Below are positions 1 through 5,931 of a stretch of DNA of 64,000 nt, piece after piece (the first letter of the stretch is position 1; each line of letters starts with the position of its first letter). The stretch is from Eledone cirrhosa. Its lineage: Eukaryota. Made by a program: the position numbers and the translations under genes. The DNA is taken from positions 25,668,001-25,732,000 of the forward strand of contig OZ024754.1 of assembly GCA_964016885.1 (NCBI GenBank). The letters are read 5' to 3'. The notes beneath the pieces are model-generated. The model did no database searches, was not told where the DNA came from, and saw only the letters and a list, made by a program, of their open reading frames with translations.

Positions 1-4
1 AATA

Positions 5-320
5 ATAGTGAAAGATTGGAGAATAACATGATCAACAGTACAAAAAGGGTTTTATTTACAGTATTAACAATTGTTTCATTGATTAGGATGTCTAAAGGTT
101 GCTAATCACTCGAAGTTGTGCCACTCAACCTTCAATTCAGTGTATACCTAATCAAATTATCGGAATAACTGATGATTTGATTAGGCATACACTGTATTGA
201 AGGTTGAGTGGCACAACTTCGAGTGATTAGCAGCCTTTAGACATCCTAATCAATGAAACAATTCTTAATACTGTAAATATAACCCTTTTTGTACTGTTGA
301 CCATGTTATTCTTCATTCTT

Positions 321-327
<7 letters not shown>
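5..327. mobile_element. Foldback/MITE-like long palindrome (two ~159-bp inverted arms, 5-nt loop)
   Basis: 5-163 (atagtgaaaga...atcaaattatcgg) is the reverse complement of 169-327 (ctgatgatttgat...tctttcactat) with about 10 mismatches counted by eye; loop aataa; the right end runs directly into (TA)n. Confidence 0.75.

Positions 328-368
<41 letters not shown>
325..368. repeat. (TA)n microsatellite
   Basis: Perfect TA dinucleotide run. Confidence 0.98.
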
Positions 369-369
<1 letters not shown>

Positions 370-389
370 TAACGTTTCTAGTTTAGTTT

Positions 390-446
390 TGAATGAATCT
401 GAAACCAAGTGGTTGTGAAGTAAAGATCTTAACCATATGGCAATGC
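390..446 (-). mobile_element. Degenerate tRNA-like SINE head remnant
   Basis: Minus strand reads gcattgccatatggttaagatctttacttcacaaccacttggtttcagattcattc, a decayed A-box/B-box tRNA-like head resembling octopus SINE 5' ends as recalled; short and diverged. Confidence 0.3.
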
Positions 447-633
447 GATTACTACGTTTTAAGACTATGAATATCTATTATACTTACGGCGATGTTTGTT
501 TTAAGCCAATGAACATAACACAAGTTGACACTGACTATTGCGTCTGGATCTATCATAAGCAGCATATAATTTTCCTTTTCTAGCTTAAAATATGACTGAA
601 GTAAAATAAAATAAAACTATTCGTATTTTATGT

Positions 634-741
<108 letters not shown>

Positions 742-935
742 TGTATGTATAGTATATTTGATAATATACTGTATGTTTATTTTAAAACATTTTGAAGACC
801 ATTGGCTATGAGTTTTAAAGTAGTGACTATGTCACTTACTTAGTCTCCGCAAAAAGAAAGGGAAGCAAGCGAAGGGATATGCAATCTAGATAACCGCAAT
901 CATATATACATCGCTATTTCAGAGAACTGATACTA

Positions 936-1870
<935 letters not shown>

Positions 1871-1932
<62 letters not shown>
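1871..1932. repeat. (TA)n microsatellite
   Basis: Perfect TA run. Confidence 0.98.
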
Positions 1933-1934
<2 letters not shown>

Positions 1935-1970
1935 TAGTTCCACAAGTATAAGTAGTTCCATAAGTAGTTC

Positions 1971-2513
1971 ATGTGTCTGTTTAACAGACACAGGATGAAA
2001 CTAGGATACTCCTGTGCTAAGAATATGAAGGCCCACATCACCAACAGCCCTAATAGCAGCACCCCACCAGGATTCTCTTGCCGAAGGCCTGAAGCGTGTC
2101 CCCTTCAACAACAATGCAGCTGTAATTTACGAAACTGTGGTCACTCTAACCGACCAAATCAACAACAAGAGGTTAAATCCTATGTAGGTATGGCGGAGGG
2201 CCGCTTTAAAGAATACTTCCTGAATCATCAGTCGACCTTCAGATACCCGGACAGACGATCGTCCACGAAGCCCGCGAGCCACGTATGGTCCCTCAAGGAC
2301 ACAGGCGTAGATTACTCCATCCAATGGAAAGTTATTACTAAGTCTAAGCCATACGCAAGTGGAAATCGGTCTTGTGGACTGTGCATTGAAGAAAGGATCG
2401 ATATCCTGAGAAGTCTACGTAATAGCGCTTGCCTAAATTCAAGGAATGAACTTTTTTCACGTTGTCCACACGTCTGTAAACACATATTATATAATTACAA
2501 AGCTCCAGATTGA
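1971..2513 (+). pseudogene. C-terminal GIY-YIG endonuclease region of a Penelope-like element (RT missing)
   Basis: 180-aa ORF with LFNRHRMKLGYSC..NM, Cys cluster SCRRPEACPLQQQC, YVGMAEGRFK...NHQSTFR, SHVWSLKD, IQWKVI, CGLCIEER and LNSRNELFSRCPH, matching PLE endonuclease motifs; the first GIY strand region looks corrupted and the usual catalytic Arg appears substituted (FKEY). Confidence 0.85.
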
Positions 2514-2686
2514 CTAACATCAACAATCTATAATATTCTGAATAACATGAAAAATTTATTCCGTTCATCCACAGTTATCTCCCTCGTATCGATCTATTGT
2601 GGGTTTACCTCCCCCAGGGGAAGTGACTGTTTCTGTACATGCGTATTCGTACTATTGTTTTTCCTTTTCCGTACAACTTCATTTAG

Positions 2687-2728
2687 ACCGAGCTGAGGAT
2701 CCGAATAAGTGAAACAATTGTTCTCGGT
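2687..2728 (+). ncRNA. Minimal type I hammerhead ribozyme motif (PLE-type), stem II degenerate
   Basis: ACCGAG-CUGAGGA-uccgaauaagu-GAAA-CAAUUG-UU-CUCGGU: perfect 6-bp stem I, CUGANGA and GAAA core, palindromic stem III, GUU cleavage triplet (after 2722). Confidence 0.75.
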
Positions 2729-2808
2729 ATGGTGAACTAACTGTTGTGGAACTACTACTACCAAACTCATCCCATGGACTGAGTGCTCTACTACTACGGA
2801 TATAACAC

Positions 2809-2900
2809 ATATATATAAATGTGTATTTATATATACATACATATATATATATATGTAACACACATATACATAACTATACATACACACATAAATATATATC
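2809..2900. repeat. Degenerate TA/TACA low-complexity tract
   Basis: Mixed tata/taca/tgta run. Confidence 0.8.
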
Positions 2901-3057
2901 AGTATAATAAAACACATGTTCAGGTTACAGCCACTTTGTGACAGATTTGTCAGAGAAGTGTTTATGTGAACAAGTATGTTCTGTAATAACTTCCTCCCAC
3001 ACCTCATTCTCTCTCATAGTGTTGACAAGACATCGGCCCATATCATATGAACAAACA

Positions 3058-3105
3058 ATATATATGTATACATACATATATATATATATATGTATATATA
3101 CATAT
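3058..3105. repeat. Degenerate (TA)n tract
   Basis: Interrupted TA run. Confidence 0.85.
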
Positions 3106-3119
3106 TTACAAATTTATTG

Positions 3120-3670
3120 ATATATGGATTGTTTCTGCTTTTATCATTCTCGTTCGGGTTATTTCTATCTCTAGATCTTTATATTTGGATAATTTTTCCA
3201 TTTCCTGGGTGGATATATCGTCATCTGTGAGAATTTATATATCAACTAGAAGGCATTTTTTCTGTGTGGCCTTTGATTATAATATTTGTTCGGTTGATCT
3301 CCCTGTTTGTATTTATCAGTATATCCCAAGATATGGTTGTTTTGTCATTCCCTAATACCTTTTCTGGTGTAGGTCTGTACCAACCTTTTCGGTTGGTATT
3401 TCATAATATTGGCATAACTTCCAGTGCATTAAATCCAAACTCTATCATGTCTGTGGATATATTCTTTTTTTTTTTTTGCTAAGTCTGGGCAGCCAGAGAT
3501 AATGTGGTTAATTGTTTCTTCCCCTCCACCACCACATATTCTGCAGTTACTTACTATGTTCTGTTTCATTATTTATTGGGGGGGGGGGTCTGGCGGGGAG
3601 GTTTTAATCTTGAGCTGCAATAAGAAATCCGTCAGTCACGGCTCTGGGCCCAGTACTTCTTAACCAGTCA
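3120..3670 (-). mobile_element. Decayed 3' fragment of an R4/Dong-like non-LTR retrotransposon (CCHC knuckle plus restriction-like endonuclease)
   Basis: Minus-strand translation across frameshifts: WLRSTG...DGFLIAAQD*, CRICGGGGEETINHIISGCPDLA, EYIHRHDRV, HWKLCQYYEIPT, TTISWD, EMEKLSKYKDLEIEI; stops and poly-G/poly-T expansions show it is dead. Confidence 0.85.
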
Positions 3671-3672
3671 GT

Positions 3673-3876
3673 CGGAGGTGGAGTGGCAGAATCGTTAAAG
3701 AGTCGGGCAAAATGCTTTGCAACATTTAGATATGGCCTTTTATGTTTTGAGTTCAAATCCGGCCGAGGTCGGGTCAGCTTTGTCTTTCATATTTTCAAGA
3801 TCGATAAAATAAAGTACCAGTAAAATACTTCCCCCTTCCCAGACTGTTGCCCTTTAACTAATGTTAGAAAGAATTG
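3673..3876 (+). mobile_element. tRNA-derived SINE (octopus-type)
   Basis: A-box tggcagaatcg (3684), B-box gagttcaaatcc (3749-3760), then gccgaggtcg...ctttgtctttcat...tcgataaaataaagtaccagt, which resembles the body of abundant Octopus SINEs as recalled. Confidence 0.75.
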
Positions 3877-4097
3877 TAATTATTGTGCATAACTTACCGG
3901 AACTTTTATTGAGGGTGCTACCTGCGCTTGTTCTCTTAAAAGGGTGGCATTACATTTTGAGTATAACTCCAAAGGATGAAGCAACATTTGCTTACCTGCA
4001 CACATTTCAAAATATTTACTGTATGCCGAAATTTGAAGGTTCACGTAACAAAGCAACACGATAATTCTATCCAAAACTTTCATGAAAGACATGATTA

Positions 4098-4100
<3 letters not shown>

Positions 4101-4151
<51 letters not shown>
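4101..4151. repeat. (TA)n microsatellite
   Basis: Perfect TA run. Confidence 0.98.
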
Positions 4152-4152
<1 letters not shown>

Positions 4153-4183
4153 CCGTCAAGGTTGTTTTTCCACGGTTATGTCA

Positions 4184-4288
4184 ATATTTATAAAACAAAT
4201 CTTGTATTTTATCTGATGAAAGCGCACCAAGAATGCCTTGGTTGTCCTTGAAATATATATAATAAAATAATTATGGTTTTATAAATAT
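4184..4288 (+). ncRNA. Type I hammerhead ribozyme with extended stem I
   Basis: Distal stem I AUAUUUAUAAAAC(4184-4196)/GUUUUAUAAAUAU(4276-4288); internal loop; proximal stem I AUUUUAU(4206-4212)/AUAAAAU(4262-4268); CUGAUGA 4213-4219; stem II AAG..ACCAAG-aaugc-CUUGGU..CUU; GAAA 4250-4253; palindromic UAUAUA; UA cleavage site after 4261. Confidence 0.85.
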
Positions 4289-4405
4289 AGTTTCCATTTA
4301 TTAATATATTGAATATTTACTCCAGTAAATTGTTGAGTGCTTTATATCAGTTATAAACTTTTAAGCTTGTTGGAATCTCAATAAATTAAATATAACTTCT
4401 GCATG

Positions 4406-4411
<6 letters not shown>

Positions 4412-4442
<31 letters not shown>
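4412..4442. repeat. (TG)n microsatellite
   Basis: Perfect TG run. Confidence 0.97.
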
Positions 4443-4444
<2 letters not shown>

Positions 4445-4747
4445 TTTACGATTCTTAGTTGACTTTTACTTTGTGGTTGTGTATTTTGAGGTCAGTAATA
4501 ATTGGTTGGTTTCTGGTTTCGGTTTAAGATTTAATCCTTAGTTATATGATTCTGGATATTTTGTTAGATACGAAGTATTTGGTGAGTCATATTTGGTTGG
4601 AGTTGACGTTGTTGTAGTGTCTGGAATGTTATATACTTTCATAACAGTCTAATTGTATGGTGTGTCTTGAGAAGTTTTATGGTTTGTTTGAATTCATACA
4701 TTTTGATGCAGGGCAGGGTTATGTACAGAAAAAAAAAAGAATTAAAT

Positions 4748-4848
<101 letters not shown>

Positions 4849-4896
4849 GTTACCTGTGTAGTTATATCAATGGCGTTGCTACTTCTGTTGCTGCAG

Positions 4897-5238
4897 TTAT
4901 TGTTGTTGTTGTTGATTGGTGGTGGTGTTGGTGGTGGTGGCGGTAGTAGTGGTGATGGTGGTGGTTGTAGTGGTGGTGGATGTAGTGGGGGGTGTTAGAG
5001 GTGGTTGTAGAGATGGTAGTGGTGGTGGTGTGGTGGTAGAGGTGGTTGTAGAGGTGGTGGTGGTATGGTGGTGTGGTGGTTGTGGTGGGGTGGTGGGGGT
5101 GTCGGTGTGGTGGAAGAAATGGTTGTATAAGTGGTGTGGTGGTAGTGTGGTGGTGATGGTAGAGGTGGTTGTAGAGGTGGTGGTGGTGGTGGTGGTGATG
5201 ATAGTGGTGTGGTGGTGGTGGTGGTGGTGGTGTGGTGT
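4897..5238. repeat. Degenerate (GTT)n/(GGT)n trinucleotide low-complexity tract
   Basis: Imperfect ggt/gtt/gta triplet repeats with internal agaggtggttgt duplications. Confidence 0.93.
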
Positions 5239-5410
5239 TATCGTTTAACTCGGGTTGAGTGTGATAACGGATGTTTTCTTATTTAATTTTCTTTTTTGTC
5301 CTAAATATTATCTTCCTTCTCTCAACAAACATTCAATGTTTCTCTGTAGTTTGTCTTTGTATTTATGTGTATCCATGTTACTTGTGTGTTGTGTGTGCAT
5401 TTATACGTAA

Positions 5411-5632
5411 TACATACATATATACATACAAACATTCATATATACATACTTCCATACATATATACAGACAAATACACACATACATACATTCACAATTACA
5501 AACATTCATACATACATATACACATACATATATATACACACATACATACATACATACATACATACATACATACATACATACATACATACATACATACATA
5601 CATACATACATACATACATACATACATACATA
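5411..5632. repeat. (TACA)n microsatellite, degenerate on the left and perfect from ~5542
   Basis: Tetranucleotide run. Confidence 0.96.
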
Positions 5633-5931
5633 GGACATTGTGACGTCATAGCAAATATATTTGAATTAATCTATTATAAAAAGACAATAACAACAAAAAT
5701 AAATACAAAAGAAAAATGGGGGAGTGTACGATATCTAGACCTTTGATTGGACAACATATCTCAGCTGAACCACGTGAATAACACTATGAAAACGCTGTCA
5801 TGGACAGCAGCCAGCGATATCCACGACATCGACCATTCCATATGTAACGAGATGTCCTATCATTTTACCATCAAAACGGTTTAATCTTGACTTGAAGTTA
5901 AGGGGCGAAAAACTCGTTTGAAGTGGGGCAG

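What the first reader, a model, noticed from the sequence alone, without database searches (positions are those of the whole stretch)
4149..4400. Stand-alone ~250-bp element with an apparently intact extended hammerhead ribozyme (retrozyme or solo pLTR candidate)
Seen: all hammerhead core positions present (CUGAUGA, GAAA, UA), a 7-bp proximal plus 13-bp distal stem I separated by an internal loop, a 3+6-bp stem II and palindromic UAUAUA stem III. It is flanked by further hairpins (auaaccgu/acgguuau at 4149-4179; auuuacu/aguaaau near 4315-4330), sits between (TA)n and (TG)n, and has no adjacent ORF. Its sequence is unrelated to the hammerhead at 2687, so it is a second family. Established: small non-coding hammerhead-bearing repeats (non-LTR retrozymes) in invertebrates yield self-cleaved and circular RNAs and are thought to be mobilised by PLEs. 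Inference: a possibly uncatalogued ribozyme-carrying mobile RNA family in this genome.
Basis: partly seen in the sequence, partly recalled or inferred. Interest (0 to 1): 0.75.

Follow-up and report, generated by a model that had tools for sequence, protein, structure and literature searches.

The report
Truncated end of a Penelope-like retroelement
This hammerhead-shaped 250-base piece is one of about ten thousand short end fragments of a protein-coding Penelope-like jumping gene, likely left by copying that stopped early, so it is a new family of a known kind and not a stand-alone ribozyme RNA.

Summary
The hammerhead motif is real (core 4213-4261; 0.002 descriptor hits per shuffle), but the element is not stand-alone. 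Window 4151-4403 is the terminal repeat (pLTR) plus a 92-nt tail of an abundant Hydra-clade Penelope-like element. An exact 19-mer over the core occurs at least 9,887 times. The same sequence lies 50 nt before the start codon of a 740-aa RT/GIY-YIG frame and again behind it: 16 of 20 RT-selected loci carry it downstream in sense. Copies sit in (TA)n, have ragged 5' ends and two fixed 3' ends (4311, 4403); head-to-head pairs join one of each in 37 of 48. Retrozyme-type arrays are absent: 81 close same-strand pairs, irregularly spaced. Likely mechanism: target-primed reverse transcription from two internal start sites on uncleaved leader RNA. Cleavage and expression are untested. One extra: each fixed end is followed, about 8 nt on, by a similar small hairpin, a candidate start signal. 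This scan noted that hairpin before on other DNA of this genome; the second family in the window fits it only at its short end.

The parts
4101..4150 (.). (TA)n target microsatellite at the 5' junction
   Evidence: 4101-4151, period 2; junction
4151..4311 (+). 5'-truncated pLTR of a Hydra-clade Penelope-like element, up to the short fixed end (S)
4151..4177 (+). AACCGT/ACGGTT hairpin; frequent 5' junction and inversion switch point in other copies
4184..4288 (+). type I hammerhead motif with extended stem I (13 + 8 bp), interrupted stem II and palindromic stem III; predicted cut after A4261
4213..4219 (+). core CUGAUGA
   Evidence: conservation
4250..4261 (+). core GAAA, palindromic stem III, UA cleavage dinucleotide
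4312..4403 (+). 92-nt tail between the two fixed ends; it is the 5' UTR of the full element and ends 50 nt before the ATG
4319..4340 (+). small bulged hairpin ACTC...GAGT-GC, 8 nt behind the short end; candidate RT start signal (inferred)
4404..4442 (.). TA remnant and (TG)n at the 3' junction

Best explanation
Shown: the same sequence flanks an RT/GIY-YIG frame at both ends, copies end at two fixed points, 5' ends are ragged with a pile-up that stops about 18 nt upstream of this copy's start, and inverted pairs mostly join one short and one long end. Inferred: the two fixed ends are RT start sites, as in the anole Poseidon element; each end of the broken target primes at one of them; the 5' pile-up marks the transcription start; the hammerhead would cut only as a dimer or with protein help, and in this lone copy is likely a passenger.
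For: Link to ORF: 4 of 4 extended loci hold RT/EN frames; 16 of 20 RT-selected loci have the hammerhead terminus in sense 0.8-2.4 kb behind the RT match; 28 of 30 loci found with tail plus ATG have the ORF behind it and 22 of 30 an intact core before it. Two ends: 227 of 255 distinct matches end at S or L; loose ends with TA runs fall at the same places in contigs of four runs of one study. Pairs: LS 37, LL 6, SS 5; P = 1e-4 against 50%. Uncleaved template: 2 of 227 5' ends fall in the 10-nt bin holding the cut site. 5' pile-up: 17 of 31 distinct position-ordered copies start within 59-80 nt of the core. Hydra motifs RWR, DKT, CxCX5C, CxxC and CxH present (criteria from PMC8557442 section 11). 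Tail = stretch between two RT start sites, and unprocessed RNA is the main substrate, in PMC11167929.
Against: Most copies carry no ORF nearby (2 of 30), which a non-autonomous short family would also give. 4 of 20 RT loci lack the downstream terminus, one (L059) lacks any copy. Pfam and PDB sequence searches do not recognise the protein; the clade call rests on motifs, a by-eye comparison with published sequences and a feature-based atlas search, not on a tree. The element is about 4 kb, longer than the 'generally <3 kb' of Hydra. Loci for the end and pair counts were mostly chosen by similarity, so the pair test is biased. The transcription start, expression and cleavage were not observed.
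Confidence: 0.9

Rival explanations
1. A non-LTR retrozyme: a non-coding tandem repeat cut by its hammerheads into monomers that circularise and are re-inserted.
For: Type I core intact in 65 of 81 aligned copies; about ten thousand mostly ORF-free copies; retrozymes derive from pLTRs (bioRxiv 10.64898/2026.07.22.740005).
Against: Only 81 same-strand core pairs 100-400 nt apart against at least 9,887 single cores. The 15 inspected have spacings of 130-398 nt, mostly with TA runs, inverted pieces or other insertions between copies of different subfamilies. The listing shows no run longer than three. The sequence is the 5' UTR and 3' end of a coding element.
Confidence: 0.03
2. A SINE-like non-autonomous derivative: short stubs are themselves transcribed and re-copied in trans by the element's RT, with a preferred 5' end.
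For: 5' ends pile up in a 22-nt zone (17 of 31); stubs far outnumber ORF-linked copies.
Against: A long-end stub lacks the sequence behind its own start site, including the second hairpin. 5' ends still scatter from 3 to over 400 nt before the core. Stubs of several subfamilies match ORF-linked termini. This copy lacks the last 18 nt up to the pile-up limit.
Confidence: 0.06
3. A solo pLTR left by recombination between the two direct pLTRs of a full element, as with solo LTRs.
For: Full elements have direct pLTRs about 3.7 kb apart (C1:12383248 and 12386924, L056 and L060).
Against: Simple 5' truncation gives the same product without a second step; 19 of the top 30 copies have an inverted partner, which recombination does not make. 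It cannot be excluded for this one copy.
Confidence: 0.05

Closest known systems
Hydra clade of Penelope-like elements, e.g. Hydra-1_Obim (Craig et al. 2021, PMC8557442)
   Same: C-terminal GIY-YIG, RW[K/R], DKT, CxCX5C, CxxC and CxH motifs, sense hammerhead near the 3' end, (TA)n targets, inverted 5' partners, one-sided tail.
   Different: About 4 kb with a 1.2-1.6 kb AT-rich 3' UTR; 92-nt tail against 30-40; hammerhead with 21-bp interrupted stem I, 11-pair stem II and an all-A/U stem III, unlike any row of File S2; the terminus differs from Hydra-1_Obim by eye.
Poseidon_Ac, anole Penelope-like element (Frangieh et al. 2024, PMC11167929)
   Same: Two fixed ends bounding a tail, AT-rich targets, copies that span the hammerhead cut site.
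   Different: There the start sites lie 111-118 nt inside the ORF in an AC-rich stem-loop and the ATG overlaps the hammerhead; here both ends lie in the 5' UTR, about 140 and 50 nt before the ATG.
Metazoan non-LTR retrozymes (Cervera and de la Pena 2020, PMC7229834; bioRxiv 10.64898/2026.07.22.740005)
   Same: Type I hammerhead with weak palindromic stem III, low GC, size near 250 nt, no coding capacity in the stub.
   Different: No fixed-unit tandem arrays, direct link to an ORF, ragged 5' ends; circles not shown.
[quoted passage not shown]
   Same: Thousands of single motifs attributed to truncated PLEs, some pairs on opposite strands 100-700 bp apart, predicted dimeric activity.
   Different: This motif keeps a stem III palindrome and a long stem I, so it is not the minimal form.

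Membership tests
Type I hammerhead ribozyme | Core CUGANGA / GAAA / UH with stems I-III | tested here: met
   core intact in 65 of 81 copies
Type I hammerhead ribozyme | Stems kept by compensatory change | tested here: inconclusive
   94.1% of cells paired; 25 two-sided cells against 8.8 shuffled (0/500), all in stem II, but 4 pairs against 4.1 (348/500) and a slid control reaches 24 cells; stem I varies mainly to G.U
Type I hammerhead ribozyme | Match to an Rfam hammerhead model | tested here: not met
Type I hammerhead ribozyme | Self-cleavage | not testable with these tools
   monomer stem III has pair probability 0.0
Penelope-like element (EN+) | Single ORF with RT and C-terminal GIY-YIG between pLTRs | tested here: met
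   L060: terminus, 740-aa frame, terminus; atlas neighbours carry RVT_1, HTH_animal and GIY-YIG on part of their members; Pfam itself gave no hit
Penelope-like element (EN+) | 5' truncation, inverted 5' partner, one-sided tail | tested here: met
Hydra clade | RWK, DKT, CxCX5C, CxxC and CxH motifs | tested here: met
   RWR 37, DKT 120, CNCRNKSNC 600, CSLC 692, CKH 719; criteria
Hydra clade | No CCHH motif in the endonuclease | tested here: inconclusive
   none seen by eye in the printed frame; no formal alignment
Hydra clade | Insertion into (TA)n; sense hammerhead at the 3' end | tested here: met
Hydra clade | Generally shorter than 3 kb (descriptive) | tested here: not met
   about 4.0 kb in L060
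Hydra clade | RT phylogeny inside the clade | not tested
   published reference proteins were read but not entered into tools
Non-LTR retrozyme | Tandem repeats of a fixed 150-450 bp unit, each with a hammerhead | tested here: not met
Non-LTR retrozyme | Independent of a coding element | tested here: not met
Non-LTR retrozyme | Expressed as circular RNA | not testable with these tools
   no run on record as RNA was listed

The most novel reading that the evidence does not exclude
Hydra-clade elements position their reverse transcriptase with a small bulged hairpin (RCTC, inner stem, 1-2 nt bulge, GAGY, then RC) a few bases 3' of each start site. A doubled hairpin gives two start sites, one used by each end of the cut target, which would explain both the tail and the inverted pairs; most insertions are run-off copies of the uncleaved 5' leader.
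Probability: 0.4. Interest if true: 0.55.

Novelty: new member of a known kind. Interest (0 to 1): 0.28.

Why it matters
As an annotation it is ordinary: thousands of lone hammerheads in animal genomes are known to be truncated Penelope-like ends. It is a caution that a lone hammerhead in (TA)n should be tested against RT-linked copies before being called a retrozyme. The value lies in the family as a test case. Two sharp ends, a short/long pairing bias and a duplicated motif behind each end give exact predictions for how these telomerase-related enzymes choose where to start and how inverted insertions form, which the papers read here leave open.

Tried and rejected
Rfam at gathering score and at E<=10: no hammerhead match. 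Pfam on six ORF pieces: only two sub-threshold DUF hits. PDB sequence search: nothing meaningful. Sequencing runs: no RNA holder listed; the four runs laid are contigs of unrecorded kind from one study and say nothing on expression or RNA ends. An ORF antisense to the hammerhead was considered after and rejected: those pieces belong to inverted 5' arms. A peak of 5' ends at the cleavage site was sought and not found: 2 of 227 in bin 105-114, 7 in bin 95-104 where the TA-rich stem III gives microhomology. Core conservation as proof of selection was rejected: the unpaired flank 4289-4300 is as conserved (0.975) as the core. A pseudoknot between the two 5' UTR motifs was dropped: the alignment fold gives two local hairpins and a nested helix with no two-sided change, and single-sequence folds are not better than shuffles (z -0.82 and +0.41). 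The hairpin rule failed at the long end of the second family: no pattern match, and the 5' UTR of L135, typical of 40 copies, has a different stem there. Some values of 221-267 in the top-30 group come from inverted arms and were not used. No target-site duplication can be read in the microsatellite. The large protein searches and folding were not used.

Full report
1. Observation. The motif is as described, with small corrections. The core runs CTGATGA 4213-4219, GAAA 4250-4253, TATATA, then TA 4260-4261. Stem I has 8 proximal and 13 distal pairs, and stem II has 11 pairs with a mismatch and a bulge. My descriptor found 1 hit in window 1-5900 and 0.002 per shuffle over 500 shuffles. Stem III does not form in the monomer; its 8-nt A/U palindrome could pair between two copies at -3.2 kcal/mol. 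Rfam has no matching model.

2. It is a high-copy repeat. A search of the own genome (3.0 Gb) gave 2,977 candidates; the 40 scored were 95-100% identical. An exact 19-mer over stem I and the core occurs at least 9,887 times, with 0 for the reversed control; the forward count is exactly 5,000 and may be a ceiling. In 81 aligned copies from several subfamilies the core is intact in 65. Pairing is kept in 94.1% of cells. Two-sided changes occur only in stem II (25 cells against 8.8 shuffled; the pair count of 4 is not above shuffles; a slid control reaches 24), so covariation is suggestive only.

3. It is the terminus of a coding element. Of the top 30 copies, 19 have an inverted partial copy within 1.5 kb upstream, and some continue into a long AT-rich stretch. 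Four such loci, chosen for that stretch and extended to 10 kb, all hold RT and endonuclease frames, sense to a copy of the terminus in three. In the reverse test I took 20 of 134 RT matches, favouring high identity and long frames: 16 have the hammerhead terminus in sense downstream, 3 more have a copy upstream only, 1 has none. In L056, L060, L066 and L069 the repeat precedes the ORF directly; the ATG lies 50 nt after the long end. Of 30 loci found with tail plus ATG, 28 have ORF homology behind and 22 an intact core before. L060 shows the whole plan: terminus, 740-aa frame, about 1.4 kb of 3' UTR, terminus, about 4.0 kb in all.

4. Clade. The frame has RWR, DKT, CxCX5C, CxxC and CxH, the features given for the Hydra clade in PMC8557442 (section 11 read whole; passages; supplement parts 1, 2, 52, 53 and search passages). 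By eye it aligns with the published Hydra-1_Obim protein but the termini differ. Atlas neighbours score 0.96-0.98 and carry HTH_animal, GIY-YIG and RVT_1 on part of their members. Pfam and PDB searches were blank. No tree was built. That the host is octopus-like is my inference from genome size and repeat content, not a result.

5. Copy anatomy. Among 255 distinct matches in 219 loci, 100 end at the short end (window 4311), 127 at the long end (about 4403) and 28 elsewhere. Nearly all ends printed run into a TA run, apart from those that continue into the ORF. Contigs of four runs from one study show TA loose ends at the same two places. Head-to-head pairs with both ends typed are LS 37, LL 6, SS 5 (P = 1e-4 against 50%); 13 pairs with an untyped end were set aside, and the loci are mostly similarity-selected. 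In L015 and L018 the inverted arm reaches further upstream than the direct arm, so it is not a simple fold-back of the first cDNA. In the position-ordered sample, 17 of 31 distinct copies start 59-80 nt before the core, 8 start closer and 6 further (four reciprocal duplicates removed, offsets good to about 6 nt). Two of 30 have ORF sequence within 1.5 kb. Few 5' ends fall at the cut site (2 of 227).

6. Retrozyme test. Two cores on one strand 100-400 nt apart occur 81 times. The 15 inspected have spacings of 130-398 nt and look like nested insertions. The listing shows four overlapping pairs (trimers) and nothing longer. Tandem organisation defines non-LTR retrozymes (PMC7229834, passages; bioRxiv 10.64898/2026.07.22.740005, first fifth and passages; its supplements were not seen). 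That feature is not met. PMC4209133 (first quarter read) already reports single and opposite-strand PLE hammerheads as truncated elements.

7. Mechanism. In the anole element, reverse transcription starts at two internal sites, the tail is the stretch between them, both target strands are cut and extended, unprocessed RNA is the main substrate and the ribozyme needs protein (PMC11167929, first half read). By analogy (inferred): a transcript starts in the pLTR, the endonuclease nicks (TA)n, and the RT primes at S or L and copies toward the 5' end through the uncut hammerhead. Most products end near the RNA's 5' end and give 230-330-nt stubs; priming of both target ends gives S/L inverted pairs. 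The window copy is a long-end stub without a partner that stops at the AACCGT hairpin, about 18 nt short of the pile-up limit. It has no second hammerhead of its family nearby in 1-5900, so it is likely inert unless it pairs in trans.

8. The extra feature. The 36 nt behind S and behind L resemble each other: in 23 of 24 copies scored no shuffle of 300 reached the alignment score, in one copy 1 did; 4 of 28 rows were not scored; the copies are related and the shuffles were of single letters. Each stretch holds a 4-bp stem about 8 nt from the end: ACTC/GAGT in 23 of 29, GCTC/GAGC in 22 of 28. The second family has it behind its short end in 36 of 47 copies but not behind its long end. Several published Hydra consensus sequences show it by eye. 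I noted it before the look-up that showed two earlier reports of this scan with the same idea on other pieces of this genome; these are AI notes, not independent support. The main text of PMC8557442 has no 'hairpin' or 'stem-loop', and the listings of searches showed no paper on such a motif. The library lacks most subscription journals. PMC13282606 (passages) mentions Penelope-like elements in Octopus vulgaris but not hammerheads or Hydra.

9. Verdict. Observation confirmed. The retrozyme reading is not supported; the piece is a truncated pLTR plus tail of a Hydra-clade element, a new member of a known kind (confidence 0.9, interest 0.28). The boldest reading left open is the twin-hairpin start signal (probability 0.4, interest 0.55).

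Noticed in passing
window 5932-64000: One tandem array of a 42-bp unit, about 1,378 copies at 91% match, GC 51% with strong skews. All six frames have 436-553 stops, longest open stretch 602 codons, so likely a minisatellite.
   Followed up: partly
window 1968-2800 (+): 5'-truncated copy of a second Hydra-like family: endonuclease piece 29% identical to the first family, hammerhead-like motif near 2690-2727, two fixed ends about 65 nt apart, (TA)n targets.
   Followed up: yes
window about 2765-2787: The ACTC...GAGT-RC hairpin follows the short end of the second family at one fixed offset in 36 of 47 copies; not found behind its long end.
   Followed up: yes
PMC8557442 File S7: By eye the same hairpin occurs twice in the 5' UTR of Hydra-1_Ajap and in the tails of Hydra-2_Ajap and Hydra-2_Amil, with looser forms in Hydra-1_Crog; not seen at the 3' ends of Hydra-1_Amil or Hydra-1_Obim.
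   Followed up: partly
window 96-236: Near-perfect inverted repeat of about 60 bp per arm; miRNA-family scores stay below gathering. Possibly a MITE or a head-to-head insertion.
   Followed up: no
L205-L219, L005, L010: Copies of different subfamilies insert into each other's (TA)n ends, forming clusters.
   Followed up: partly
L060:2374-4593, L058, L059: Several copies keep open frames of 690-740 codons; L060 carries substitutions in RT motifs. No copy was checked for full integrity.
   Followed up: no
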